From Jimgerdemannia flammicorona (lineage: Eukaryota): a DNA stretch of 33,930 nucleotides. Position 1 is the stretch's first letter. Every line of letters begins with the position of its first letter. Below, piece after piece: positions 39 through 33,885 of the stretch. The notes below the pieces were generated by a model. It was not told the DNA's origin. It searched no databases and saw nothing but the letters and a program-made list of their open reading frames with translations. The stretch spans positions 1 to 33,930 of the forward strand of contig RBNJ01000292.1 in NCBI GenBank assembly GCA_003990765.1, given 5' to 3'. The translations under genes were made by a program, and so were the position numbers.

Positions 39-1330
39 GATAATTACATTTAAAAGTTATCTTAGAACTTTAGTTGCTACTTTCAAAGATCTTGTTGATG
101 GGAATACCACCTTCCAGAGCCTCAGTAGAGGTCTCAGCACAGACTGAATGAGAGTGATGAATCAGATCAATATTAGCAGTCACTATATACTCAGAGAACT
201 AGATATATAGATATATAATCAGAAGTAAGAGAGAGTATATACTAATAAAGAGATAATTACTATTCAAGAGTAGTCAGAGAGATTTCATTTTCTAGATTTA
301 TTAAAAAGTTCAAAATACTGAATATATATATATCTTTATCTTCTATAAAGATAAAAATAGAACAGAATATCTTAGTGAGAGTATCTAATATATATTTCTT
401 AATTATATCAGCAGTAGAGACTATCTTGGTAGATTAATTATTAGTATAATCTCTGAAACTATATATTATTTTGCAAAGTTATTTATATATAATTTATTAA
501 GAGATATATAATGTAAGAAGAGTGTGTATCTTTTTTCTATATTGTATTTTTTACTTAATGAAATTATAAAGTTTCAGAGAAATCAAGAATAAGATAAGAG
601 TTATTATATTTCAGTAATTAGTCTTAGTCTTAAATAAAGAGAAGTAGAGATTAACTACTATAAATTAAATATATAATAGTTAGTAGTTTAGAAAGCTATA
701 TATTATTTACTATAAGTATCTATTAGCTAATAACTATCTAGATATTTCAAAATTTATATATATTTATTTTATTCTAAAAAAGTTATATAAGTAGTATTTA
801 GAATAAATCAAATTAAATTTATTTATTTAGAAGTATTATATAAGATAGTTAGTATATTATTTAGCAAAAGTATATATATAAGAAATTAATAAGTTATTAA
901 TAATATTAATAACTATAATATTAATATACTAATTTATAGTTTATAGAGAAAGATACTCAGATATTCTCTCAGATAAGTTTATAAATCTATAATATTAATA
1001 TTATAATATCTAAATATTATTACTAATTAGTTATATCAGTATATCTTATTTGTTATCTGAGTTATCTTTTTAGTTCTTATTAGAAGATAGTAGAAAAGAA
1101 AAATTATAGAAATAGTTACTATCTTGAGAAGTTTGAATTACCAACTTTATTATTTCTAAAATATATATATATATAATGAGAATAAACTATTAATATTTAT
1201 TTTTCATAACCTTATAAAGAGAGTAATTTAAGAGAATTCAGAGAGAGTTTATATATATTCTAAAGATTGATTAAAGATGTTTAAATATATTAATATCTAA
1301 TATGTAAGAGTTTATCTACTATATAACTAT

Positions 1331-1816
1331 TGTAATAGTTGATCTGAATTAGTAACATAAATCAGGAGAATAAGACATTTGATCACAGTACCTGAATCTG
1401 ATTTTCAAATATAATATAGCCTATATAGCAGTCATTTCACAACTGTTAAAGTTTTTATGAATGTTAAACTATTCACAGATGTTAAACTCTTCAATGATTG
1501 TTAAAGATTTAACAGATATCAAGGATTTAACACTTGTGAAAGAAATGACTTATAGAAAATATAGTCATAACTTAGCCATCTCATAGCTAGTAAAACTTGT
1601 ATAAATAACCTAGTATCTTAGAGTAAATAAAGCCTCAGATTGAAATAGTTCAAAGTAAAGAGATAGTAAAGGAACTAGTAAGCCTGTGGGCAGATATACT
1701 TCAAACTCACCCATCCTCCCCTACAACTCAAAGGACTCTGCAAGAGTCAGAACAGTCAAGTTCTCAAGATACAGAAATCTGACATACTTTCAAGAGTAAG
1801 TGTTCACTATATTACA
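1331..1816 (+). repeat. 5' LTR of element A
   Basis: Begins TGTAATAG and ends ATTACA; aligns with 11654-12139 at equal length; TATAAATA near 1600 and AATAAA near 1626. Confidence 0.95.
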
Positions 1817-1930: not shown

Positions 1931-2236
1931 ATGGATATGAGACTACCAGTATTCTACAGATATACCTCAGATGAATCAATCATCACCTTCATTGATGATT
2001 TCAAGCAGTATGCTGCTGTAAGGACTCTGACAGTAGCACAGCAAGTAGCCCTTATGCCCTTTAGCCTATGAGGCCCTACAAGAGTAGCATTCACAGCTGC
2101 AAACTATGTGGGAAATGATGCTAATGCTACACTGATAGCACAGAAGACCTGGCTTTGAACTACCTACTATACAGACAAGATCAAGCAAGTTCTAAAGGAC
2201 CAGCTCAACACAATATGTGAAGGAATGAGTGAAGAT
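1931..2236 (+). pseudogene. element A gag, N-terminal part (interrupted by the LINE)
   Basis: MDMRLPVFYRYTSDESIITFIDDFKQY... with in-frame TGA stops; colinear with uninterrupted B gag starting at 22195 (-). Confidence 0.85.
2220..2236 (+). repeat. left target-site duplication of the LINE
   Basis: AAGGAATGAGTGAAGAT is repeated exactly at 8234-8250; B has a single diverged copy at ~21890-21906. Confidence 0.95.
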
Positions 2237-2322
2237 GGTACATTTTTCTCCAGTAACATTCAGGTTACACAACCCTTTGGCAACACTTTCAACATAGTTT
2301 CTGGAGAAAAGCTACTAGTATC

Positions 2323-4352
2323 ATGGCGATCAACGAGCGTCTGGAGGTGCATACTGGGCAGAGTGGCCCTGGAGCATTTGAATGGCAATAAGTGAGGAGA
2401 GGCCCTGGCTTGGAGGGAAGCATGAGGGGCCTGCTGGCGGGGGGCCATGGTGGAGGAGGGGGCGGAGCTGGAGGTCAAGGGTCTGGCAGGGCGAGCTTTG
2501 CGGAGATGATGAAGGGGGGTTGGCAGGGAGCTGGACTAGAGAGCTGGCTAAGAGGGGGGAAGGTACCAGTGGTGGCTTCCAGGCTATAGCCTCTTGGGGG
2601 TACCTCTCTAGAGGGCTATAGGAGTGGGGCTGGGGGGGTAGCGGCTGGGGCAGAGACTGCTGATGGGGGTGTGACAGGTGATCTGGAAAAAAATCTAGAT
2701 AGGACTGCTGATGGTGGGCCAAGTAGTGGGAAGGGCATGAGGCCCGGGGACCTGGCGGATGATGTAATGGGCCTGGTGGTGGCTCCATTACTTAAGAAGT
2801 CGATCTCAGTGTTCGCAGTCATGCTGTGCTTCCAGGGCTTAGCGGTGATAGCAAAAATGGTGTTGGGGCTTATCGCTAAGCAGGTGGCAGGAGCAGCTTT
2901 GGTGAAGTTTCTGAAGGGACTAGAGGGGGTGGAGGTGGGATTTGAGGAGGTTGGACCACTGGAGGAGGTGCTGAAGGTTGGGTTGGTAGTTGGGGAGGTA
3001 TGTGTTCTGATGGTACAGTGTCTGAAATGGGATCTGAGGGTGGTCCAACTGTTGGTGAATGGCATACCCACAGTGATGGCGATGGAGATGAGGAAGAGAG
3101 TGAAAGATGTCATGGCAGAGTATGGAGAGGTAGTAGATATCAGGTTCAGGGTCTGGGAAGGGACCACACTCAGGACTGGAGATGTGGATGTGAGAATTCG
3201 GCTGGCTGGGAAAGAGGCTACTGGAAAGATGAGGGACTGGCCTTCAGTGTTGATCTGGGGAGCTTTTCTGTGCAAGGTGACATGGGTGAAAGGGAGTGAA
3301 GAAGAGGAGGAAGATTTATTGGAAGTGCTGGAGGAGCTGGATGGGGCTGTGGAATAGCGAGCTAAGGTCTGGAAGTCTTTTGAGGAGTCGACACTCCTGG
3401 AGGTAGTGGATGGAAAGAGAATTCGGGTGGACAAGGTGCAGTGGGAAAGGGCTCAGAGGTGGAAGAGGCAGAAGGATCTGCTGGCTAAGTTGGGGGGTGG
3501 ACCACAGAAGGATGCGAGTGTGAAGATGGGGGCCGAAGGGGCCAGAGCGAGTGTCTGGGCTGGTGAGAGGAGTGGGAATGAGGGGGCAAAGTCAGGGAAG
3601 GCTAAGGAGGCAAAGGGCAGCGACCTATATGCTGACAGCACCTTGGAGGTTTGGGAGGAAGTCTGGGAGAACTCCCCCACCCCTTCCCCTCTTATCAGGC
3701 ATGGCCCGGCTTCCAGGAACAAGTCTGGGGAGGACGTGACGATGCTGGGGACCCAGCAGGTGAAATTTAGCATTCCGGAGGTATTGGATGGGGACTGAGT
3801 CATGGCAGCAGGGGAGGAGAAACTGGTGGATGTCCCGGAGGTGTGGGATGAGGACACGAGTGTGGGAGCTGACACCATGATGCTGGATGGAGGGAGGCCA
3901 GTGACCCCTGGTGGAAAGGAGGTGGGGAACCTACTTTGGATGTGTCAGATGATGAATAACCTGGTGGCAGAAGAGCTGGGGGAGGTGGACTTGCGTGGGA
4001 TGGGGGATGAGCACTGGGTAAGAATTTTGCAGGGAGAAGAAGTGGTGATGGCACTGAAGGCAGAAATTCTGGCAGTGTATCTGGAGGAGGAGGGTATGAG
4101 GTAGATAAGGAGAGGGAGGCGGAGTTGGCAGTGGTTGCTGGGGAGAAGGCTGAGTACTATTGGAACAGGCATCATGGGTTGCAGCTCTGGTAAGAGGCTT
4201 GCATCGAGTACTGAGAGGAGTTTGAGGAGAAGGCTGATGAGGAGATGAATGAGCTGTTGGCTGGACTGGAGGCTCAGAGGGCAGAAGAGGAGGAGGTGAT
4301 GGCTGAACATAATCTGGACATAGCGTGGGAGGAGAGGGGCATAGAGCAGTAG
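2323..4352 (+). pseudogene. LINE ORF1 (RRM-like nucleic-acid-binding protein), disrupted
   Basis: ORF pieces at 2392, 2671, 3406 and 3802 share one frame from the ATG at 2323. RRM-like segment LLVNGIP...VMAEYGEVVDI...RTGDVDVRIRL. A probable 1-nt frameshift near 4095 leads into an acidic tail. Confidence 0.7.
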
Positions 4353-4381
4353 GGATTGAATGAGAACAACCATATTTTACT

Positions 4382-7300
4382 ATGAACAGTACAACCAATA
4401 TTTTTTCTTTGAACGTGAATGGACTGAGGGGCGCAGTTCAACATAGGAACATTTTTATTTGATTGAAGGGATTGGAGGCCGATCTCTTCCTCTTGCAGGA
4501 TATCAGGTGCGAGGATGATGCTAATAGGATGGAATGGACTAAGGAATGGGGTGGTATGGTGACTTGGAACAGTAAGGTCGGTATTCTGGTTCAGAAAGGC
4601 AGAGGGGAGATAAAGGATGTGAGGAGCTGGGGGGAAAGATTGGTCTGGGGTGAGTGGATCCATGCGGGGTGGGAGTCAGTCACTGTTGGCTCCTGTTACT
4701 GCCCTGCTGTGCAGAGGGAGCATGTGGATTGGGTGAACAGGCTCCTGGAGAGTGGGATCCTTGCTGAAGCTGGGTTGGATATGCTTGGAGGAGATTTCAA
4801 TATGGTTTGGGATGTACAGCTGGATAGAACTGATAGAGGATGGGGTGCGGAGAGCAGGAGTAGGGGGTTGGCAACATGGGTGGAGGTTGAAAGGCTTGGA
4901 GCACTGGTGGATGCTGGCAGGGAGTACTGGGGGGACAGGAGGATATACATGCATTGGGCTGGAGGTCTGGGGACAAGAATTGACTGGATTCTGACAGCCA
5001 ACTGTTGGGGCCGTGATGTTTGGAAGATGATAGAGGTAGAATGGTGTCCATGGTCAGATCACTGGGGCCTCTTGGGACAGGGGTGCTTTGGGGGAAGTAG
5101 AGATGGGCCTGGACATTGGTGCCTAAATTCCTCCTTGTTGAATGATGAGGCCCAGTGGGAGGAGTGGGCAAATGACATTCAGCTGAAGGTAGTGAATTGG
5201 CAGCAGGAAGGGGCCACGATTGGGATTCAGTGGATGAGGTTGAAAGAGATGGCCAGGATGTATTGGAGCGAGGCTGGCAGAGTGGCTGGGAAGCAGCGAA
5301 GGCAGAAAGTGCATTGGGCTTCTACTAGATTGGCTAGGCTCCTGGAGGAGTGGGCAAGAATGGTGGCAGTAGAGGGAGAAGAGGAGTGGAGAATAATGAG
5401 GGTGAAGATAGAGGTTGGAGAACTGCAACAGGTGCTGCGGGAAGAGGAAGAGTCAAGGGTGCAAGGCCTGATGGCACAGCTTTGTTGGCAGGGGCTGGAG
5501 GAAGGGGAGAGGCCTTCTAAGTTTCTCACAAGGACACTTCGAGCGAGAAGGGTGCAGCAGTGGTGGGAAGGGGTACTTGACTCAGATGATGTACTAGTGC
5601 ATGGTGTACAGGACATTCTTGGAATGCTGAAGGCACAATGGAGTAGATTGTGGAGTGAGGAGGAGGGTGGGGCAGATGCTATGGCCATTGATCAAACATT
5701 AGAGGATTGGCACCCACCACATGCTGAGAGACTAGGTGACCTGGTGTTGCCTGTAAAGGAGGTCGAGATCCACCAGGTTCTTGCTGCGACAGCCTCGGGT
5801 ATGGCGCCTGGGGAGGATGGCCTCCCCTGGGACTTCTGGAAGTGAATAGTTGGAGTCCCAGGTATATTGGAGGAGTTGACAGCACTGTGTGACTCTATAT
5901 TGCAGTCAGGGAGATGGGTGGGGGAGCAAGACCTTGGGCTGGTGATGCTGCTTTATAAGAACAAGAGAAGGTGAGAGGATTGGAAGAACTGGCAGCCGAT
6001 AATGTTGCTAGATATGGACAGGAAGTTGGTGACTAAGGTGGTAGTCGCAAGGCTACAGAAGGTAGCCCAGCAAATTGTGGGTGTTGAGCAGAGGGGCTTC
6101 ATAGGGTGTCGGCTTATTAGAGATGGTACAGCCTGGGTACATGGAGTTATTGAAGGTGCTCGAGCCTGTGGACTAGATGGGCATCTTGTCTTCTTGGATC
6201 AGGAGAAGGCTTATGACTGGGTGCGGCGAGTCTGGCTGGCAAAAGTATTAGATAGAATTGGAGTTCCAGACCCATTTCAGTTGGCAATGGTCAGCCTACT
6301 GGAAAGGAGTAGGGCTGTGCTCGTGTGCAATGGGCATCAAGGGGTGGCTTTCCCTCTGGGTAGGGGAGTGCCCCAGGGGGACCCACTGTCCCCCATTTTA
6401 TATGCTCTTTCCTTGGAACCTCTAATGGACAGGATTTGACAGAAGATTGTGGGGCTCTCTATCTATGGTGTTGGCTGGAAGGTTGGAGCCTTTGCGGACG
6501 ATATGGTGGTTGGTTTGGGAGTGACTGCGGATGTCGAGGAGCTCCGGAAGACTGTAGAGTGGTATGAGGAGAACTCTGGAGCGAAGCTGAATTGGCACAA
6601 GTGCGAAACAATGGTGCTGGGCAATGGCTTGGTGGGTGGAGAGGTTATTGGAACAATTGTCCCCACCGAAGAGGCAGTGTGGTACTTGGGCATCTATTTA
6701 TCGGTCTATGGGTCTGTTTTGCCCAGGCTGTGGTGAGAGCAGCGGATTGGAATTTGGGAGGAGGACTTGTGGGGTTGGGGGGGTAGACACTTCTCTCTGG
6801 CTGGAAGGGTCTCAATTCTGAATGTATATTGGTTGCCAAAGCTGTGGTATTTAGCCTATCATCTGGACTTCCCAGCCTGGGTAGTAAAGAGATTGGTGAA
6901 GGTGGCCAAGGGATGGATTTGGGCTGGCAGACAGAGTCAGATTGACTGGGAGACTTTGTTCCTACCGGTGGCAAGGGGTGGTCTTGGGCTGGTGGACTTT
7001 CCCAAAAGACTACACTGCTTGAGGGCTTGGTGGCTGAGGAGGGTGGTGGAGCTGCATGGAGGGGGCTGGGTTCCCCTGTTGCAGAAGATATGGGAGAGGC
7101 AGACATCGCCTAGAGGCTTGACTGGTGATCTTCTTTCATTAGTTGGGCTTCAGAACACTGTGCAACTGAGATATAAAGGCTTCTAGTGGGGGATAGCCAA
7201 GGGGGCACACCACATTGGTATTCACTGGCAAGGGGATGAGGGGGAGCGGGCTTGGGACTTAGCGATGTGGAGATGGGATAGCATTCTTCTGGGAGGCATG

Positions 7301-8038
7301 CCTTTACTGGAGTTCAACATTAGTAATAGCATCGAATGCCAAAGGGGTCCAGGCCAGGATCTGTGGCCTAGTGGTTGGCAAGAAGTCGGAATTGGTGAGG
7401 AGTGAGACTGGCATAGAGTTTGGACCTGGAGTGCCACAGTGAAAAATTGGATGCTGCTGAAGTACTGGATAGTCTGGTGGCGTGTGCTGAGGAGGAATGT
7501 GATGCTTAACTTTCACTTGGGACACCTTGTTGTAGGGGGCTGCTTTGACTGCGAGGAGTGCCATAATGTTGGGCAGGAAGGGGGATTGGTACAGATGCCA
7601 GAACATTGGCTAGGGGAGTGTGAGATGTTGGGAGACTTTTGGCAGACCATTAGTGACCACTTGGGGGTAAGGCGTAGGGGGGATGATGTACGGGGGAGGT
7701 GGGAGGACCTGAGGGATTGATTGATAGGAGGGGTAGGGGAAGAGTGGATTACTCTAGGCTGGGCATTGGCTATTTGGGTTGGGCTGGCCAGATACTGGCT
7801 ATTTGTATTTGAGGGGGAGAAGCAACAGAGCTTGGGGAGCTGGTTGGCAAGATGGCAGTACCTTATGGAGGATACCTTGATAGGCTGGTGGCTTGGTTGG
7901 GGGCTGCAGGGGGGTCGGAGGTGCTGCTTGGTGGTGAAAATCTGTGGCCAGAGTGGTGAGAGGGTGGGAGTTGTTGGTGAGAGGGTGGTCTTTATACATG
8001 ATAAGGTAGGGTGGGGCCCCCCAATGGAGATCGGATAG
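4382..8038 (+). pseudogene. LINE ORF2: AP endonuclease, reverse transcriptase and C-terminal Cys/His domain
   Basis: SLNVNGL, GGDFN, RID and SDH (APE); FLDQEKAYD, GVPQGDPLSP, AFADD and YLG (RT); CFDC...EHWLGEC. All ORF pieces share one frame and are broken only by stop codons. Confidence 0.95.
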
Positions 8039-8233
8039 TGGGTGGTGATATTGTATACTTATTCATAGACTGGTAATAAAGATGGAGTCCAAGGGACTAT
8101 AAAAAAAAAAATGGCTGGTCTGTATATACAATCCAGCGAAAGAGCTGATTTTGAAATTCTGCCAAAGAGTATGGCTAAATATTTTTGATTAAATGACATT
8201 GTTGGTACAGAAAAAAAAAAAAAAAAAAAAAAA

Positions 8234-8250
8234 AAGGAATGAGTGAAGAT
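8234..8250 (+). repeat. right target-site duplication of the LINE
   Basis: Identical to 2220-2236. Confidence 0.95.
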
Positions 8251-11312: not shown

Positions 11313-11675
11313 AAGGCCTATTAGAACTGAACTGAGTTTCAGAAATACTTCAAACTGAGACAACTACTGAATTCACAGCCAGAGATGGGAAAAGAAGACT
11401 GGATTAGAGAGTGCTAGCTTTTCCATACTTAGATCATAATTACCAAATGAATCAACAAGTTGTTCAAAGATGATAAACCAGCCTTAGCCCACTTTTGAGG
11501 AGTAGTCCCAGGAGATTTCGGACATATCAAAAGACATCATTGGGAGAATATAATGACACAAATTGCACAGTACAAGGAGATACAAATCATAGAAGCATGA
11601 GAGTTTGAGTAAATAGGATGTTTCAGGGATGAATTACCTATTCAGGAAGAAGTTGTGACAGTTGATCTGAATTAG
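11313..11675 (+). pseudogene. element A post-integrase ORF3, 5'-truncated, unknown product
   Basis: Colinear, indel-free translation matches B 16517-16880; ends TAG TAA inside the 3' LTR. Confidence 0.65.
11644..11653 (+). promoter_or_regulatory. polypurine tract of element A
   Basis: AGGAAGAAGT abuts the 3' LTR; B has AGGAGGAAGA at 16539-16548 (-). Confidence 0.75.
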
Positions 11676-12139
11676 TAACATGAATCAGAGGAATAAGATA
11701 TTTGATCACAATATCTGAATTTGATTTCCAAATATAGTATAGCCCAGATAGTAGTCATTTCACAAATGTTAAAGTTTTCATAAATATTAAACTATTTACA
11801 AATGTTAAACTCTTTGATAATTGTCAAAAATTTAACAGATGTCAAGAATTTAACACTTGTGAAAGAAATGACTCATAGGAAATATAGTCATAACTTAGCC
11901 ATCTCATAGCTAGCAAAACTTGTATAAATAACCTAGTATCTTAGAGTGAATAAAGCCTCAGATTGAAATAGTTCAAAGCAAAGAGATAACAAAGGAACTA
12001 ATAAGTCTGTTGACAGATATACTTCAAACTCACCCACCCTCCCCTGCAACTCAAAGGACTCTGCAAGAGTCAGAACAGTCAAGTTCTCAAGATATAGAAA
12101 TCTGATATACTTTCAAGAGTAAGCATCTACTATATTACA
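11654..12139 (+). repeat. 3' LTR of element A
   Basis: TGTGACAG...ATTACA, 486 bp, followed by the CTAT TSD. Confidence 0.95.
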
Positions 12140-16069: not shown

Positions 16070-16538
16070 TATAATATAGCAGATGCTTACTCTTGAAAGT
16101 ATGTCAGATTTCTATATCTTGAAAACTTGATCTTCTCTGACTCCTCAGAGTCCTTTGAGTTGTAGGAGAGGGGGTGAGTTCAAAGTATATCTGCCCATAG
16201 GCTTACTAGTTCCTTTGCTATCTCTTTGCTTTTGAACTATTTCAATCTGAGGTTTATTCACTCTAAGATACTGGGTTATTTATATAAGTTTTGCTAACTA
16301 TAAGGTGGCTAAGTAATAGCTTATTTTACAAGTGTTGAATCTTTTAATATCTGCTAAGATTTCACTGATTGTGAAGATTCTAACATCTCTTAAATCTTTG
16401 CAAATGTTAAAGTTTCTGCACTTTGCAGAATATGGCTGCTATTTATGAGGCTAAGCTATATTGGGAATCAGATTCAGGTACCATGATCAAATGTCCAATT
16501 TCCTTGTTTCATATTACTAATTTGGATCAGCCATCATA
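16070..16538 (-). repeat. 3' LTR of element B
   Basis: Same length as and colinear with 22310-22778; the PPT abuts at 16539. Confidence 0.93.
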
Positions 16539-17041
16539 TCTTCCTCCTGAATAGGTGATTCATCTTGGGAGCATCCTATTCACTCGAATTCCCAGACTTC
16601 TACAATTTGTATTTTCTTATACTGTATGATTTATATCATTATATCCTTCCAATATTGTCTCTTGATATATCCAAAGTCTCCTAGAGTTACTCCTCAGAAA
16701 TGGGCTAAGGCTGACTTGTCGTCTTTAAATAACTTGTGCACTCTTTTTACAATTGTGATCTGAGTGTAATAGAGCTGACATTCTCTGATCCAGTCTTCTT
16801 TTCCCATCTTTGGTCTTGAATTCAGTAGCTGTCCCAACTTGAAGTATTCCTAAAACTCAGTTTGGTTCTGGTAGGTCTTGAAATATGAGATTTATGATAA
16901 GTGTGTTTGCACTATACTCTGGATACTATCAAAGGATTCTTCTATTATTGGTGGCTCGGTGGAACACTACTGTCTTTTGATGGCTCACTGGGCTACACTA
17001 GTAATTCTGAGGGCAGCAGTATTACTTCATTGACTGGTCAT
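16517..17041 (-). pseudogene. element B ORF3 (~174 aa, unknown product)
   Basis: ATG at 17041 overlaps the end of pol; 175 codons without frameshift to a TAG inside the LTR; internal stops are reversible by single transitions. Confidence 0.65.
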
Positions 17042-20000
17042 GATACTTCTTGAGTCAGTTTCAGTGGATAGTAGTGGAGATGATTGTGCCTGAGAGTTTT
17101 CATACCCAAAAGGTGGTTCCTTTTATATCTTGCACAAGGTAAGGTCCTTCCCACTTGGGCTCCAGTTTTCATGACCATGAGACTTCTACCATGTTCTGAT
17201 ACACTAGGACTTTGTCTCCTATCTTAATAATCTCCAGGGCTTGTGGGTTTTTTTCCACATTCTTCCATTGTAATGCCTGTGCCTTCATTATATAATCCTC
17301 AGCCTTCTTTCTGATTTGGTGTAGTCTCTGTATTTCTCCATCCACATGTCTCCATATAGCATCTTCATTAGACAATAGGATTTCTCAAGAACTTTCTTCT
17401 CCAAACAGCATCTCTCGAGGGGTAAAGTGGGTACTTTGTGATCTGATATCCCAGAGAGCAGATAATGCTATTGGCAGATAGTGATCCCAGTTTTCATAGT
17501 TATCATAGATCTTGGCAATAACATTCTTGAGGGTCTTCTTGGTCCTTTCTGCTTGTCCATTTCCTTGGGGATAATAGGCTGTGGTCCAAATATACTGGAT
17601 CTTGTACTTCTTGTAGAGAATCTCAAAGAACTGGTTTATGAATTCTGTTCCTTTATCTATAGTTACTTGCATTGGAGTCTTGAACCAGCAGATGATTTCT
17701 TTGTGGAAGAAATCAGTGATTGACTGTGCATTGGCTTCCTTGAGGGGTCCTGCTTCTACCCATTTTGTAAAAAGGTCTATGATAACAATAATATATTGGT
17801 TACCAGTCAGGGTCAAGAGTAGAGGGCCAATTACATCCATTGCTATGTGGGCAAATGGTACTGGTTCTATATGTGCTGATCCTGGGGCTTGGTTTTATTG
17901 GTCTTGTTTCTGTTTCTGGCATTTGTCACAGGTTTCTGATATCTTTCTCTATTCCTGGCCACCATATCATTCTTCTTGCCTTTTCATATATATTCATTCC
18001 TCCTAGATGGCCAAGTTTATGTACTGATTTCATTGTTTGCTCCTTCTTGTGTTCTGGTATGACTAGTAGTTTTCCTTTCTTCAGTATTTGTCTGTCAGTT
18101 TTGAATTGTTTCCATGTTCTGTTGATAATCATTTGCATCCATTCTTCCAGATATTGGGGCATCTTTCACTGTCCCAGATATGTGATAATTCCATAGTAGA
18201 GCTCCTTATTCATAATTGATTTGTTGGTTGGAGATATTTCAAGGTATCCATGAGAGAGCATCTACATTAGAATTTGTTCTTCCAGAGCAGTGTACAATGG
18301 TTACATCATAGACTTATAGCTTCATTATCCATCTGGTGTAGATTCCTTTGAGTTGTTTGGTTATCAGTAGCCAGGTGAGAGCTGAGTGGTCTGTCTGGAT
18401 GGTGAAGTATCTTTCAGCCAGATAGTAGTGGAACTTTTCCACAGCCCAGATAACTGCAAGGCATTCCAACTTGTAGGATTCATATTCTTTTTCAGCTCCT
18501 TGAGTTCCATGGCTAAGGTATATAATAATGTACTCTTTTTTGTCTTTCTTTTGAGCTAGGACTGCTCCTAGTCTCTGTGTACTTACGTCTATCTACAGAA
18601 TGAATTCTTGAGTCCAATTGGGTCATCTAAGGATAGGTGCCTGAGTTAGTCTGATCTTGAGTTCATCAAATGCTTTTTGTTGTCTGTCAGTCCACTGGAA
18701 CTTAGTATTCTTCTTATTGAGTTCATAGATTGGGCCTGTGATGTTAGAGAATCCTCTAATAAATCTGCAATAGTAGAAGGCAAGTACCATGAAGGCTTGA
18801 GCTTCTGTAACAGTAGTGGGCCTTGGGTATGCTGCTACCACTTATATCTTGAGTGGGTCTGTATATATTCCATCTCGATTGATAATATGGCCAAGGTAGG
18901 AGATCTTGATTTCTGCAAACTTGCACTTCTTGAGTTTGATGTAAAGGCCATATTGTCTTAGTCTCTCTATTATCTACTATATATGCTGCAGATGTTCCTC
19001 AGGTGTCTTGCTGTAGATAATTACATCATCGATATAGACCATCATCTATCTTCCCATATCATAGTAGAAGATTTTGTTCATCATTCACTGAAAGCTTGCT
19101 GGTGTATTGCACATCCTGAATGGCATTCATAGGTAGATGTAGGTTCCATCTAGGGTGATGAAGGCTGACTTTTCACTTACCATCTCTGTGAGTCCAATTT
19201 GGTGGAATCCCAAGTATAAGTCCAAGGTGCTGTAGTACTGTACTTCGTCTCCCAGTATTATAAGGATGTCACTGATGAGGGGCAGTGGTTGGCGATCCTT
19301 CTTGGTAACTGCATTGAGCTTTCTGTAGTCAACACAGAGTTTTGGGGCGAATTCTCTAGGTTTGCTTCCTTTTTTTAGGGCTAGTACAACTGGTGAAGAC
19401 CAGGGGCTGCTGGCTTCTTTAATAATACCAGCTTCTTCCATCTGCTTGATTTCTTCTCTGAGCCATTCTCAGTAGGCTGGTGGGACAGGTCTTGCCTTCT
19501 GGTAAATTGGTTCGGTGTCTCCAGTATCTACCTCATGATAGTAGTGTGGAGTCTTTCTCTTGATATCCTTGAAATCTGTGGCAAGGATATCCTCGAATTC
19601 GTGGAGTATTTTCTTGAGTTCCTCCTTGAGTGGGAATTCATTTCCAATGGTGTAACTGTGCTTGTTTGTGATTTCCTCCTTCTTATACTCCAGTTCAGTG
19701 ATCTTGATACTGGTGAATACTCCTCTTCCTATGGATCCGAACCCTTTCTTTTCTCTTTTTGTTTCCTCCAAATTCTTAACTTCTATGATCCTTGGTTGTG
19801 GGATTGGAAAGATCAACATCTGTACCAATCAGTCCTTCTTTTTGACCAGGAATGGAATTGTAGGATTGTGATTCCTAACAATGAGCAGGATTTCTCTAGT
19901 ATAGTCAGAATCGATGACTCCTCCTTCAATCGTAATTTTGCTTCTGGCCAGGCTAATTCTTGTCTTGAGGATCCTGACATGATCCTTTGGGATAGTCATC

Positions 20001-22195
20001 TCCAGTCCAGTTGCAAGTAGGGTAGTTATTTGGGGTTCTAGTATAGCTTCTTCTACTGTGGCAATGTCCATTCCAGCTGTATTTTCCGACTTGTATTCTG
20101 GCAAGACTGCATCAGAGTGGGTCCTTCAGATCTTGACCTTAATTTCTTCTTCATCATTGCTATCCTCCAGGAGGGCAGGTGGTTCATTATCTTCCTTCTT
20201 CTTTTTTTCTCTGATCTGTTTTTTGAGAGCTTTCTGTCTTCTTTCCTGGTGGATTTTCTTGATTCTGATGGTACACTGATAGCAATCATTGACATGCTCC
20301 ATACAGTATATCTTGATCCTGTGAGGACAGACTCCTTGTGGTGTATAGTCTTCTGTGATCTTCTTGTACCATTCTTCTTCACTCATTCATCCTACTTTCC
20401 TCTTCAGAATAGTTACCATATAAGCTTCCTCCTGCTCGCTCTCTTCTTCCTCTATGTCAGGCAAGACTTCTTTGTTGACATTGATGGGAATTCATATCCT
20501 CTGTCCTTGGTAGGTGATTTGTATCTTCTGGGCATTGAGATTGATTACTGCCCTGGCTTTATAAAGCCATTGATTGCTGATGAGGATGTCATAGTTGGTG
20601 GCATTGGTTACAATCATGTCTACTGGGATGGTTGCTCCTCCAATCTTGATGAGAACATCTCAGATCTTTCCCAGAGGGGTGGCTCTTGTGCCATCTGCTA
20701 TGACAAACACCAACTTGGTTGCTTCTTCAACCTCCCAACCTAGGCAGTCTGCTGTCTTCTTGCTGAAAAGACATTCTTCTGCTTCAGTATTGATGATGGC
20801 TTCAAAGACTCTATCTTCGATTTGGCATATTACATAGGCAGAGGTTTTGCGATTGTCTTCACTTTCTTCTCCTGAGTTCTCTTGAATATTATTGGCCTTG
20901 GTTATCTTCCATCCTTACTCCTTGGTTGTTTTGGCAAGTCCAAACCTCATTTGTTGTCTGAATATTGGGATTTCTGTGAGCTGACCAAAGGTTGCATAGA
21001 TCTTTTGTTGGCTAAGGTCCTTAAAGATATTGTACTTAAAAGTCTTGGTCTTGTGAAGTTTCTTTTCTTTTTCTCCTTCACTGGCTGGAGTAGTTCCTCA
21101 GATAATATCTTGAACTGCTTACTCCAGCTCTATATCTTGGTCCATCTCTTCAGCTTGGCTTTTGGTGGCTGTTTCCATCTACTTTTCTACTGGGTTCTTC
21201 TTGGGTCTTTCTGGTGATCTCTTGTAGGGTTCCTTGTGAACATCCTTCTTGGTAGTCTGAGCAGGATAGACCTCCTATTCTTCTTCATTAGAATCTCCAA
21301 TTTCCTCGAAGGTAATTATATTGGCCTGCTCCTTGTTTTGTATAGTATTGCTTAGTTGAGCCTTGTACTTAGTTTCACTCATGCATTCATAGGAGTAGTG
21401 GCCTTCTTCTCCGCAAGTATAGCAGGTGCCTTTCTTCTTATCTGAGGTGGCAGCAAACTTCTGGACAGGGTGGCAGTCTCTTCCTCTGATCTCCTTTACT
21501 ACATCCCCCAAGTGAGCAGTCATTTCTATGAATCTCTTGGTAAGTTCCTCCAAAGGGTCACTGTTCTTTTGCTGCTCTGTAGCTTTAGACTGAGGTGTGT
21601 TTCAATTGATCATTATGGTGGGGATCACACTGGTTGACTTAGGTGCCTTGATTCTGACTCCTGTAACTCTCTCCATTATATAGTCTTGTGAGTATCTGGC
21701 TATCCAGTATTACTGAGCATAGGTGACCTTCTGTGGTAGATCCAGATTCACTGGTGATGAGTGGATGGCCATAGCTATTTCTGGGTGGACTCCTTTTATA
21801 AAGGTTGCTTTGGCTACTTGATCTCAGATAGCAGCAGCATAATCTGCAAGAATTATCTGATATCGAATTCTGATATAAAATGTGTTTGGATCCTCACTTA
21901 TTTCTTATCATGTTGTGTTGAGCTGATCCTTTAGGACTTGCTTGATCTCATCTGTATAATATATATTTTGGAGCCAGGTCTTCTGTACTGTCAGTATAGT
22001 ATTGGTATCATTTTCTGCATGAGTTGTGGCTATGAATGCTGCTCTGACAGGACCTCATAGGCTGAAGGGCATGAGGGCTACTTGCTGTATTGCTGTCAGA
22101 GTCCTTACAGTGGTATACTGCTTGAAATCATCAATGAAGGTGATGATTGATTCATCTGAGGTATATTCATAGAATACTGGTAGTCTCATATCCAT
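17022..22195 (-). pseudogene. element B gag-pol polyprotein (gag, CCHC, PR, Zn motif, dUTPase, RT, RNase H, integrase with GPY/F; no chromodomain seen)
   Basis: CYTCGEEGHYSYEC; PWSSPVV; FQWTDRQQKAFDELK; HKLGHLGG; MDVIGP, DKGTEF and TAYYPQGNGQAER; KLEPKWEGPY. One frame from 22195 to ~18620, with frameshifts later. Confidence 0.95.
19727..20143 (-). pseudogene. dut: dUTPase domain in element B polyprotein
   Basis: AGMD, RISLA, GGVIDSDYTRE, LVQML and REKKGFGSIG. Confidence 0.93.
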
Positions 22196-22309
22196 CTTGT
22201 CTAGGTATTGGGGCTTGGTTTATATGGTTGTTCAGGTAGGGGTAGTTGTTTGTTGTTCAGCTTGAAAGTGAGGAATTTGTCTTGAATTACCAGCCAATGG
22301 GCACTAAGT

Positions 22310-22778
22310 TATAATGTAGTGGATGCTTACTCTTGAAAGTATGTCAGATTTCTGTATCTTGAAAACTTGATCTTCTCTGACTCCTCAGAGTCCTTTGAGT
22401 TGCAGGGGAGGGGGTGAGTTCAAAGTGTATCTGCCCACAGGCTTACTAGTTCCTTTGCTATTTCTTTACTTTTGAACTATTTCGATCTGAGGTTTATTCA
22501 CTCTAAGATACTGGGTTATTTATACAAGTTTTGCTAACTATAAGGTAGTTAAGTAATGGCTTATTTCGCAAGTGTTGAATCTTTTAACATCTGCTAAGAT
22601 TTCGCTGATTGCAAAAATTCTAATATCTTCTAAATCTTTGCAAATGTTAAAGTTTCTGCACTTTGTGGAATGTGGCTGCTATTTATGAGGCTAAGCTATA
22701 TTGGGAATCAGATTTAGATACTACAATCAAATCTCTAATTCCCCTATTTCATGTTATTAATTTGGATCAGCCATCACA
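22310..22778 (-). repeat. 5' LTR of element B
   Basis: Minus-strand TGTGATGG start at 22778; PBS follows at 22306-22291. Confidence 0.93.
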
Positions 22779-23407: not shown

Positions 23408-26400
23408 TATAAGAGGGTTACTTTATTAGAATACTGTTATATAGTTCTGAAAGAGTTTTCTAGATATTCTGGATATTCTAGAAGACTGTTTTCTTTAGAT
23501 CAAAATCAATTTCATATAGAGTACATCCTCTATACTTATTGATTTCAAGAATAGATTAATGTCTCAACCAAAGTCCTTTTTTGGACTAGTTCTGGATGTT
23601 TAGGATTTTCTATATTTTAGAAAGTTCAAAAAACTAAGACTAGCTTAGTTGAATTGGTATATTGTTGTAGATAATACCTAATTAGAAAATTTTAAGATCT
23701 GATTAAAGTGAGACCTAATAGAGTATAGATTTACTTAAGAGTGGTTTGTGGGTTATTAAATAGATTTATTTACTATTTATGATATTGCTATACTAGAAGT
23801 AGTATATGAAGAGATATTTATATAGAGAAGTATTCTTAAGTTGTTCTTATCTGTTTAAGTCTGTTTATGTCTATTTAAGTCTAAGTTTCTAAGATCTGGG
23901 GAAATAGATATTTATACTAATGAGAGACTATCTGGACTATACTAAATGTAGATATAGTACTTAGTACTTTGATAAGTCAGAATATAGTTATATAGTATAA
24001 GTTGTAAACTAACATATTAAGAGATTGTCTAACTACTGAGTCAGTATATAGTCATATAGTATAAGGCTAATATAACTATACTAATAACTGCTAAGCTATC
24101 TACATATTTAGATACTATCTAGGTATTCTTCAATAAGGTTACTATTAATAACATTATCTCTGATAAAGTAGTTATCTAGGAAGAGTAGTTCTTGGATTAT
24201 ATCTCTCTGTTTATTTATTATAAGCACACAACCTCCAAGCCACCAAAATTGCATGGTATCCTCAGAACTAATTCAGAAACCACATGCGAGACTACAAAAC
24301 AAGAGATCATCTGGTTACACGAAATATGCCAGCAAGCATGAGAACCCACCACCAAGATACAAAAATACTAGAAGAAGTACTACAACCATAAGACGGACTC
24401 TGAACTGTTATAACTAGTTTGGTGTACTGTACTATTACAAAAGAAACTGAAAGTACCAAACTCAAATCAAGATAAGAAGAACCCTATCTCACCCATCAAA
24501 AGGTTCACAAACTGCACTTATCAACCCAAGACTAAGATATACCATGACTATACAAGACCTCATTACTTAGCAGAAGCAAAATGCATTTGAACAACTCCAT
24601 TCGCTTTATCTATGTCACCTCCGTTGGAGAGTGATGGATACTTTATCTGAACTCAAGAAAGCCAACAATGTTGAAACCAATCTCAAGCCATCCATGTGAC
24701 AGATATTACTACTAGAAATTGCCTTGAATTACAGAAAATATCATTTCCGAGAGGTTTGAACCCCCAGCCGTGACATTAGGAGTCCTCACCCTAGATGAGA
24801 ATGGCCAGTCCTCACAAATGCGCCAGCAGACCAAAAAAAAAAGAGAACCAAGATCTGTTATCCTTGTACAACCACCGCCACTAAGGACAGCCTTAATCTT
24901 GCAAGAGATAGAAGTGATGATACCTTGAAACTGATGAGGTCAGAAGTCAGAAAACTGCTCAGACTTTGCCAGTGATGATGTCATCAATAGTGATATCATC
25001 AAGGACTAACCAGACAGTGCCTAAATCTATAAATAGTCTAGCAGTCATAGCATAGTTAGATTAGCCTTGTACGATATAACTGTGAACTGACTCAGCAATC
25101 AGATGATCTCTTGACATATCAGATCACACTTATACTACGTGACTGCATTCCGACTCAGCAAGACACTTAGTGCTACATCCATATTCAGCATAGTCCAGAT
25201 AGCCCCTCACTAGTATAAATACCCCCTCCCCCAGACCTCAGAATCTCAGACTTGAACAATCCGAACACAACTCTTGAGCACTTCCCCACAATATTCCTTC
25301 ACACAAATACTCCTAGTATAGCAATATCATGAATAGCGAATAAACCTATTTAATAATCCACAAATCACTCTTAAGTAAATCCACTCCCTGTTAGGTCTTA
25401 CTCCTAACTCCATCACGAAATTTCCTAATTGGGTATTGTCTGCAGCGATACGCCAATTCAACTAAGCTGGTCTTAGTATCTTGAACTTCCTGAAATACAG
25501 AAAATCCCGAATATCCAGAACTAGTCCGAAAAAGGGACTTTGGTTGAGATGTCAACCCGATCTTGAAATCAATAAGTGTAGAGGATATACTCCATACAAA
25601 ATTGATCTTGACCATAAGAAAACGGTCTTCCAGAATATCTAGAACTTCCAGAAAACCTTCTAGAACTACGTAATGGCTACCCTAAAAAGTAACCCTCTTA
25701 CATTTATATAATAATAGATTGAAACTATATTATCATTCTATAGAATAGCATCATCTGTCTTATATACTAGATAGGGTGTTAGTGAGTAGAGAAGGGATAC
25801 ATTATCTTTACTTTCATCAGATTTGCTATTAGTATATCTTTGATATATTATAGTACTATATATTATAAGATTATAGTATACTGGTAGCTATGGTTTATTT
25901 TATTCATAGTTAAGAGATGGGGTTGTTGGTTCAATCTCAAGAGTTGTCTAGAGATATAGGTTATATTCTTTGATCTCTTCATTATAGTTGAAGTGATTAG
26001 TATAAATATAGATTAGTATTCATGCCAGTGGTCATTATCCTAATAGGTCTCATAGGTAATTATAAACTATTATAAGTTCATCTGCTTTGTTATTATCAAA
26101 CTAGATTATATTATAGATATTCTTTATTATATATCTAACTTGGGGTATTTGTAGAATATAATCATTAGAGTATAGAAAGAGTCTATCTGTAGTTTGGGCA
26201 TACTTGATATACTTGTGATTGAGTTCTTATACCATATTATCAATTTGTCTATAGGACAGAATAACAACTATTTCAATAGTAGTAACTCAGAGATAGGGAA
26301 TAAAGATACTATACTCATAGAAGAGTTCTTAGAGTTTACAGGTGATGAGTTTCTAGTATTGAGACATTTCAGTAATATCTGTATTATAGTGATAGCTAAC

Positions 26401-33368: not shown

Positions 33369-33885
33369 TGTAAGAGAGTTACTTTATTAGAGTACTATTA
33401 TATAGTTCTAGAAGGGTTTTCTGGAAGTTCTGGATGTTCTGGATTTTCTGAAAGACTGTTTTCTTTAGGTTAAGATCAATTTTATATAGAGTATATCCTC
33501 TATATTTATTGATTTTAAGAATAAGTTGATATCTTAACAAAAGTTCTTTTTTAGACTAGTTCTGAATATTTAGGATTTTCTATATTTCAGAAAGTTTAAA
33601 AAACTAAGACTAGCTTAGTTAAATTGTCATATTGCTGCAGACAATCCCAATTAGGAAATTTCAGAATCTGGTTAAGAGTGGGACCTAATAGGGTGCAGAT
33701 TTACTTAAGAGTGATTTGTAAATTATTAAATAGATTTATTTATTATTTATAATATTGCTATACTAGGAGTAGTATGTAAAGAGATATTTGTATAGAAAAG
33801 TATTTTTGAGTTAATCTTGTCTGTTTGAGTCTGTTCATATCTGTTTGAGTCTGAGTTTCTAAGATCTGGAGAAGTAGGTATTTAT
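33369..33885 (-). repeat. 5' LTR of element D (U5, R and TATA part only)
   Basis: Matches 23408-23915; similarity stops abruptly within the TATA box. Confidence 0.85.

What the first reader, a model, noticed from the sequence alone, without database searches (positions are those of the whole stretch)
16517..17041. Hidden third ORF after integrase that runs through the PPT and stops inside the 3' LTR
Seen: B has an ATG overlapping the pol end and 175 indel-free codons; A keeps the last 121 codons (11313-11675). Most stops in one copy are sense codons in the other (TAG/CAG, TGA/AGA, TGA/TGG, TAA/CAA). The two stops shared by both copies fit an ancestral CGA. Consensus core: TEFQEYFKLGQLLNS.P.MGKEDWIRECQL.HTQI.I.KRVHKLFKDDKPALAHFRGV.PGDFGHIKR.HWE.IM.QI.QYKEIQI.E.WEFE. 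It occupies the env position but is short and hydrophilic, with no evident signal peptide or TM helix. Inference: an accessory protein of unknown role, for example anti-silencing or targeting in a family that lacks a chromodomain.
Basis: partly seen in the sequence, partly recalled or inferred. Interest (0 to 1): 0.7.

Follow-up and report, generated by a model that had tools for sequence, protein, structure and literature searches.

The report
Extra gene in fungal Gypsy retrotransposon
A decayed jumping gene of a fungus carries a real, selectively maintained third gene for a small soluble protein of no known family, but the gene is shorter than first read and ends before the terminal repeat, and its job is still a guess.

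Summary
The ORF is real, but the headline is wrong. It lies on the minus strand (17041-16580) of a dUTPase-bearing Ty3/Gypsy element of a fungus. It has 153 codons, not 175. Codon 154 is a stop in 51 of 51 copies and in four natural 153-aa proteins. A further subfamily stops there with TAG and reads the PPT in another frame. So the ORF does not run through the PPT into the LTR.

Purifying selection matches integrase (transversion pN/pS 0.16 vs 0.15). No TM segment; no significant Pfam, PHROG, PDB or BFVD match. The element is tricistronic: gag-to-RNase H, a separate integrase, then ORF3, each ATG overlapping the upstream ORF's end.

A sister family lacks ORF3 but carries a weakly similar domain inside its LTR; a chromovirus carries a probable third relative. 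That weakens the chromodomain-substitute idea. A low-confidence model has an HTH-like core. Best guess (0.35): a nucleic-acid-binding regulator of its own element.

This scan noted the split integrase and shared accessory ORF earlier on other pieces of this genome. New variant of a known kind.

The parts
16580..17041 (-). ORF3 of copy B: ATG at 17041, 153 sense positions (7 now stops) and terminator TGA at 16582-16580
   Evidence: natural 153-aa homologues
16539..16579 (-). Non-coding, strongly conserved stretch between the ORF3 stop and the LTR, ending in the polypurine tract (16548-16539); can form a hairpin starting at the stop codon
   Evidence: (1 near-fixed transversion in 60 nt); hairpin not significant; 4 nt shorter in subfamily F
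16070..16538 (-).
17022..18213 (-). ORF2: integrase as its own ORF (H2C2, rve, SH3/GPY-type end, no chromodomain); ATG 18213 overlaps the ORF1 stop; private frameshift near 17925 in B
18206..22195 (-). ORF1: gag (CCHC)-protease-dUTPase-RT-RNase H in one frame
22294..22306 (-). Putative primer-binding site 3 nt inside the 5' LTR end; tRNA not identified
22310..22778 (-). 5' LTR of copy B, 91.4% identical to the 3' LTR
11313..11612 (+). Copy A: last ~100 codons of ORF3 with terminator TAA at 11610-11612, joined by a deletion to the RT region
11654..12139 (+). 3' LTR of copy A
1330..1816 (+). 5' LTR of copy A (90.6% identical to its 3' LTR)

Best explanation
SHOWN: ORF3 is a 153-codon gene under purifying selection, the last of three chained ORFs in a fungal dUTPase-bearing Gypsy family. 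It ends 31 nt (27 nt in subfamily F) before the purine run of the PPT region. Its product is soluble and predicted all-helical. INFERRED: it is made as a separate protein from its own ATG, either from a spliced/subgenomic RNA (about 0.45) or by ribosome stop-and-restart at the overlapping integrase stop (about 0.4). INFERRED, weakly: residues ~61-107 form an HTH-like three-helix core. With it the protein binds its own element's nucleic acid (most likely LTR DNA) and raises or protects the element's expression, as a trans-activator or a family-specific counter-silencing factor. Related domains sit inside the LTRs of two other Gypsy families, there with long acidic tails. That the gene is real: about 0.97. 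The confidence given below is for the function.
For: Gene: (pN/pS 0.16; shifted frames 1.40 and 2.79). Own start: the ATG stays fixed while the integrase stop drifts to 5, 8, 17 or 41 nt downstream; ATG kept in 74 of 83 copies. Fold: in the second model the best-supported part is residues 61-110 (pLDDT 61-72). It aligns to HTH DNA-binding domains of SopB (Z 5.1, rmsd 2.6, 56 residues), VirB (Z 4.8, rmsd 1.9, 41), ParB (Z 4.7, rmsd 2.2, 43) and sigmaF (Z 4.9, rmsd 2.7, 48). Relatives: family G's LTR ORF matches ORF3 residues 52-131 (hhalign E 0.0017; 0 of 60 block shuffles reach the score). Family H's LTR ORF matches G (0 of 60). Copies show CpG-biased C-to-T decay (CpG o/e 0.10 vs 0.43), the kind of silencing such a factor would counter.
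Against: Both models are low confidence (mean pLDDT 53 and 52). The protein is not consistently basic (pI 5.7-8.8). hhalign probabilities are only 15% (ORF3-G), 11% (G-H) and 2% (ORF3-H; 3 of 60 shuffles reach it), and H was picked out by a profile that includes ORF3. No binding, expression or functional data. For reinitiation: the 41-nt spacing in L091 exceeds the ~20-30 nt range given in PMC10275272, and no structured signal was found.
Confidence: 0.35

Rival explanations
1. RNA-level helper: binds the genomic RNA for export or packaging (CERV/Rev-like), or promotes reinitiation on the downstream ORFs (cauliflower mosaic virus TAV-like).
For: A tricistronic RNA needs unusual translation or export. 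Precedents: CERV of Cer1 (PMC10309623, abstract) and TAV (PMC10275272, passage).
Against: Family H has a continuous RT-RH-IN-chromo pol yet carries a probable relative, so a split integrase is not what calls for it. No arginine-rich motif is evident.
Confidence: 0.22
2. Integrase partner: a targeting tether replacing a chromodomain, or an adaptor loading the separately made integrase into particles.
For: Translationally adjacent to integrase; this integrase has no chromodomain and is not fused to Gag.
Against: A probable relative occurs in a chromodomain-bearing family. Family G has a 76% identical integrase but only a ~20% identical domain, elsewhere in the element. Subfamilies A and B share a nearly identical integrase with clearly different ORF3s.
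Confidence: 0.2
3. ORF3 is a C-terminal extension of integrase reached by +1 frameshifting.
For: The ORF3 frame is open for about 27 codons upstream of its ATG; Ty1 and Ty3 use +1 shifts (PMC5911963, passage).
Against: Fixed ATG at both junctions; no Ty1/Ty3-type shift motif seen by eye (motifs recalled); no longer fused protein found (weak evidence by the tool's note); G and H carry the domain apart from pol.
Confidence: 0.08
4. Env-like fusion or membrane protein in the env position.
For: Position only.
Against: Max KD19 0.19-0.46; 1-2 Cys; 153 aa; no Pfam match.
Confidence: 0.03
5. One reading: a 175-codon product running through the PPT into the LTR, natively or by readthrough of codon 154.
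For: Codons 155-174 have no fixed stop in subfamilies A-E and L091, and are highly conserved; the stop sits at the base of a possible hairpin.
Against: Stop in 51 of 51 copies with three different stop codons across subfamilies. In subfamily F the spacer is 4 nt shorter, so the PPT is read in another frame and a stop follows at codon 168. The conservation covers all three codon positions, as expected of a cis element.
Confidence: 0.02

Closest known systems
Sense 3' additional ORFs (aORF/ORF3) of Ty3/Gypsy elements: plant Athila/Tat (PMC11728184, passages), bdelloid Juno/Vesta/TelKA ORF3s (PMC5408684, abstract and passages), 'add. ORF' of fungal elements (PMC2864245, figure legend)
   Same: Extra ORF between integrase and 3' LTR, conserved across a family, function unknown; the rotifer elements also carry a dUTPase domain.
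   Different: No match to env, GDSL, DEDDy or any Pfam family; start codon overlaps the integrase end; integrase is itself a separate ORF; relatives sit inside LTRs of other families.
Fungal dUTPase-bearing Gypsy elements: PosPlaTy3-5 (Postia), Phanerochaete elements, Tuber Tmt1 (PMC2864245, passages)
   Same: dUTPase between protease and RT, as in PosPlaTy3-5.
   Different: Here no chromodomain, a split integrase and an ORF3. Sequence relationship to those elements was not tested.
Coupled termination-reinitiation: calicivirus and influenza B TURBS, SART1 (PMC10275272, passages), CHV1 UAAUG (PMC2699510, listing only)
   Same: Downstream AUG within a few bases of the upstream stop: 5 nt at the RNase H/integrase junction in nearly all copies, 5-17 nt at integrase/ORF3 in genome subfamilies.
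   Different: No UGGGA within 110 nt and no stable structure found; 41-nt spacing in L091; not reported for LTR retrotransposons in my searches.
VANC21/VANC6 of VANDAL DNA transposons (PMC6719617, passages); foamy virus Tas and MMTV sag (recalled, no call)
   Same: Functional analogy only: element-encoded accessory factor acting on its own family; 3' or in-LTR location.
   Different: No sequence or fold similarity shown; function untested here.

Membership tests
Ty3/Gypsy (Metaviridae) | Domain order PR-RT-RH-IN | tested here: met
Ty3/Gypsy (Metaviridae) | LTRs TG...CA, PBS, PPT, target-site duplication | tested here: met
   4-bp duplications in 12 of 17 LTR pairs, read by eye
Ty3/Gypsy (Metaviridae) | Integrase continuous with RT-RH in one pol ORF (usual layout) | tested here: not met
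   ORF1 stop in 53 of 54, 21 of 21 and 30 of 30 copies; integrase starts at its own ATG. A departure in layout, not in the enzymes.
Ty3/Gypsy (Metaviridae) | RT phylogeny within a named clade | not tested
   no reference RT set on hand
Chromovirus | Chromodomain at integrase C-terminus | tested here: not met
   (SH3/MLVIN_C-like end only); family H as positive control, E 3.4e-18
Env / env-like ORF3 | Signal peptide and transmembrane helix | tested here: not met
   hydropathy only; no dedicated predictor available
Sense 3' additional ORF of Gypsy elements | Separate ORF between integrase and PPT, conserved and under purifying selection | tested here: met
Sense 3' additional ORF of Gypsy elements | Expressed as RNA and protein | not testable with these tools
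   one search listed no RNA holder
ORF overlapping PPT/U3 (nef- or sag-like layout; recalled) | Reading frame continues into the LTR | tested here: not met
   for this family; family G's ORF does lie in its LTR
TURBS-type termination-reinitiation | Start and stop within about 20 nt | tested here: inconclusive
   5, 8, 17 nt in genome subfamilies; 41 nt in L091
TURBS-type termination-reinitiation | Upstream 18S-complementary structured element | tested here: inconclusive
   no motif within 110 nt, no stable fold; low synonymous change upstream, p=0.12
HTH DNA-binding domains (ParB/SopB type) | Three-helix core with recognition helix | tested here: inconclusive
   Z 4.7-5.1 on a low-confidence model
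VANC-type anti-silencing factors | Sequence-specific demethylation of the cognate element | not testable with these tools
   needs expression in the host

The most novel reading that the evidence does not exclude
ORF3 belongs to an unnamed HTH-like protein family that several unrelated fungal Gypsy lineages (split-integrase families and a chromovirus) pass around as a 3' module, placed either after integrase or inside the LTR. It would be a sequence-specific counter-silencing or trans-activating factor of fungal LTR retrotransposons, made here from a tricistronic RNA by two successive stop-restart events.
Probability: 0.15. Interest if true: 0.8.

Novelty: new variant of a known kind. Interest (0 to 1): 0.48.

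Why it matters
Extra ORFs in Gypsy elements are a known class whose functions are mostly unknown. This one has natural intact versions to express, selection as strong as integrase, and probable relatives that change position between lineages. That makes it a tractable test of whether fungal retrotransposons encode their own regulators or silencing antagonists. The separate integrase ORF raises a second testable question, how the element makes and packages integrase.

Tried and rejected
No family or structure found: Pfam, PHROGs, PDB sequences, Foldseek BFVD and PDB, VIA-align (best Z 5.0 and 6.4, both non-specific). ESM Atlas returned only unnamed clusters and low-count leads (Translat_reg, DUF6192, HTH_3, Closter_coat). 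The phmmer search of 50% representatives gave 5 hits: 3 family members and 2 chance repeat proteins (P0012, P0013; rejected). Its query carried 7 X residues, which lowers sensitivity. No longer fused form and no viral-contig locus. L092 is a short chance match.

The hairpin at the stop codon is not significant (z -0.85 to 1.31). The codon-154 tally for subfamily F came from a misaligned blastn gap and was replaced by direct translation. Searches with divergent integrases returned mostly subfamily F and family G, not more distant families. A resemblance to DUF3102-type proteins is recalled only and found no support in the Pfam scans. The host's phylum was not established.

Literature searches that found no description of this ORF or of a separate-integrase Gypsy clade. 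The library lacks most subscription papers and Repbase, and I opened no supplements.

Full report
Setting. The window holds two copies of one LTR retrotransposon family: B on the minus strand (LTRs 22778-22310 and 16538-16070, 91.4% identical) and A on the plus strand (LTRs 1330-1816 and 11654-12139, 90.6%). A is interrupted by a 6-kb insert and deleted from the RT end into ORF3. Pfam gives CCHC, aspartic protease, dUTPase, RT and RNase H for B, and H2C2, rve and an SH3-type end for the integrase of a near-intact metagenome relative, L091. The genome has full-length Chitin_synth_1 matches, so the host is a fungus; I did not establish its phylum. The family is abundant: 1334 first-look candidates, 40 scored. 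Copies are decayed by C-to-T changes, strongest at CpG (0.365 against 0.175-0.23 in other contexts relative to L091; CpG o/e 0.10 in B, 0.43 in L091).

Is the ORF real? I aligned 51 of 60 fetched loci (1 duplicate and 8 non-spanning loci dropped; B included, A not), which fall into five subfamilies. Among codons 11-173 only one column of the ORF3 frame is a stop in >=75% of copies. The other sense frames have 9 and 3 such columns, and the antisense frames 5, 10 and 5. The integrase frame has 0. Indels occur in 10 of 51 copies, each private. Near-fixed transversions between subfamilies fall 8/1/16 on codon positions 1/2/3 (P=0.0016), against 10/12/8 in the LTR. Against L091, transversion-only pN/pS over 58 copies is 0.16 for ORF3, 0.15 for integrase and 0.08 for the RNase H end; shifted frames give 1.40 and 2.79. 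The copies are not independent, but the site count agrees (6/2/19). No stop-free copy was among 46 gap-free genome copies examined.

Where does it end? The one fixed column is codon 154 (16582-16580): 51 of 51, TGA in most B, C and D copies, TAA in most A copies. An overlapping set gave 45 of 46, L089 being the exception. Four natural database proteins, 69-88% identical to P0014, are exactly 153 aa and end at the same residue (P0001, P0014, P0017, P0021). P0014 appears to be L091's own protein, so these are not fully independent of it. A sixth subfamily, F, stops there with TAG in 23 of 24 distinct copies. Its spacer to the purine run is 27 nt instead of 31, so any readthrough would use another frame and stop at codon 168. 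The 60 nt after the stop are conserved at all three codon positions, as a cis element holding the PPT and LTR edge would be. The LTR starts at 16538, fixed by 5'/3' LTR comparison.

Architecture. In L091, ORF1 runs from gag to RNase H and stops; integrase lies in the +1 frame with an ATG 5 nt before that stop. The stop is kept in 53 of 54 genome copies and the ATG in 47 of 54, and both in 30 of 30 F copies. Three database integrases at 41-51% identity begin at the same methionine; two closer ones were called from an upstream Met, and that search was limited to 224-714 aa, which favours stand-alone forms. At the second junction the ORF3 ATG is fixed (74 of 83) while the integrase stop lies 5 nt (A, C, E), 8 nt (F), 17 nt (B, D) or 41 nt (L091) downstream. 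Stop-restart translation fits the first junction well: fixed geometry and no YAG acceptor within 145 nt upstream in L091. It fits the second less well: PMC10275272 (passages) gives within 20 nt, falling off beyond about 30 nt. A CAG 51 nt upstream of the ORF3 ATG is kept in 77 of 83 copies and could be an acceptor; PMC5408684 (passages) says ORF3s are typically expressed from spliced messages. A +1 frameshift is not excluded, since both downstream frames are open for 27-30 codons upstream of their ATGs. I had no RNA data.

The protein. About 18 kDa, pI 5.7-8.8, maximum 19-residue hydropathy 0.19-0.46: not env-like. No significant library match was found (see Tried and rejected). Two AlphaFold2 models are all-helical and low in confidence (mean pLDDT 53 and 52). 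The best-supported part of the second model, residues 61-110, aligns to HTH domains of SopB, VirB, ParB and sigmaF at Z 4.7-5.1. These lie below unrelated top rows (best Z 6.4) and inside the tool's non-specific range, so this is a lead only.

Relatives in other families. After reading earlier scan notes I tested their claim that such ORFs also sit inside LTRs. Family G (integrase about 76% identical to L091, also with its own ATG) has no ORF3 before its PPT. Its 1.2-1.3 kb LTR holds an ORF of about 300 codons with an acidic tail. Part of it matches ORF3 residues 52-131 (hhalign E 0.0017, probability 15%, 23% identity), and 0 of 60 block shuffles reach that score. In 5236 translated fragments, 19 of the 20 cross-family hits of the ORF3 profile (8-30 bits) were copies of this one domain; best 13.1 bits against 6.0 on reversed fragments. 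Family H is a chromovirus with a continuous pol (Chromo E 3.4e-18). It has an ORF downstream of its PPT, inferred to lie in the LTR (no LTR pair recovered). It matches G (0 of 60 shuffles) but ORF3 only marginally (3 of 60), and it was picked by a profile containing ORF3. I put ORF3-G homology at about 0.8 and the three-way family at about 0.6 (judgement).

Mechanism. A soluble domain kept under selection, present whether or not the element has a chromodomain or a split integrase, and free to sit after integrase or inside the LTR, is best read as a trans-acting factor independent of Pol processing. With the HTH-like lead and the acidic tails of G and H, I favour a nucleic-acid-binding regulator of the element's own LTR, activating or counter-silencing (0.35). 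Rivals: RNA export or reinitiation helper (0.22), integrase adaptor (0.2), frameshift fusion (0.08). None of these functions is shown.

Comparison and novelty. Extra 3' ORFs are a known class in Gypsy elements (PMC11728184, PMC5408684, PMC2864245; passages read), and dUTPase between protease and RT is known in fungi (PMC2864245, PMC6431247; passages). VANC (PMC6719617, passages) and CERV (PMC10309623, abstract) are functional analogies only. PMC5911963 and PMC3248453 (passages) do not describe this layout. My searches found no description of this protein or of a separate-integrase Gypsy clade; the library is incomplete and I opened no supplements. This scan had noted the split integrase and the shared accessory ORF on other pieces of the same genome. 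I found the split integrase before looking; the in-LTR relatives were their lead.

Noticed in passing
window 18213-18206 (-); L091 4612-4619: Integrase is its own ORF; its ATG lies 5 nt before the gag-to-RNase H stop in nearly all copies, in family G, and probably in relatives at 41-51% identity.
   Followed up: yes
L164 688-1975 and 7680-8970 (family G): LTRs of 1.2-1.3 kb each hold an ORF of about 300 codons with an ORF3-like domain and acidic tail; 6150 first-look candidates in the genome, many stop-free in the domain.
   Followed up: partly
L112 ~1700-2800; L178, L185, L196 (family H): Chromovirus with an open frame of about 410 codons just after its PPT, holding a probable relative of the same domain and a long acidic, Pro-rich tail; 4064 first-look candidates.
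   Followed up: partly
window 18000-16070 (-), subfamilies A vs B: Integrase shows 1 near-fixed transversion in 957 nt between subfamilies A and B, ORF3 18 in 459 nt and the LTR 22 in about 405 nt: suggests exchange of ORF3-LTR modules on a shared backbone.
   Followed up: partly
window 16582-16549 (-); L091 6254-6287: Possible hairpin from the ORF3 stop to the PPT edge; not significant against shuffles.
   Followed up: partly
L096-L115 flanks: 4-bp target-site duplications, often ATAT or ATAG, in 12 of 17 LTR pairs read by eye.
   Followed up: partly
L091 5522-5792 (last 270 nt of integrase): Fewer synonymous transversions than the rest of integrase (4 of 41 vs 20 of 102 sites, p=0.12): possible expression signal for ORF3.
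   Followed up: partly
window 2236-8234: GC-rich 6-kb insert in copy A with an endonuclease/phosphatase-type domain (4463-5845 +, E 1.9e-4) and a poly(A) run near 8211-8235: LINE-like.
   Followed up: no
window 23410-23915, 33371-33885 (direct), 24963-25705 (inverted): Another repeat family of about 0.5 kb, LTR-like, 75-84% identical; no ORF3-like hit in it.
   Followed up: no
L146, L148, L153 just after the integrase stop (family G): An ATG follows the integrase stop by 4 nt and opens a short frame in the 377-nt stretch before the LTR; not tested for selection.
   Followed up: no
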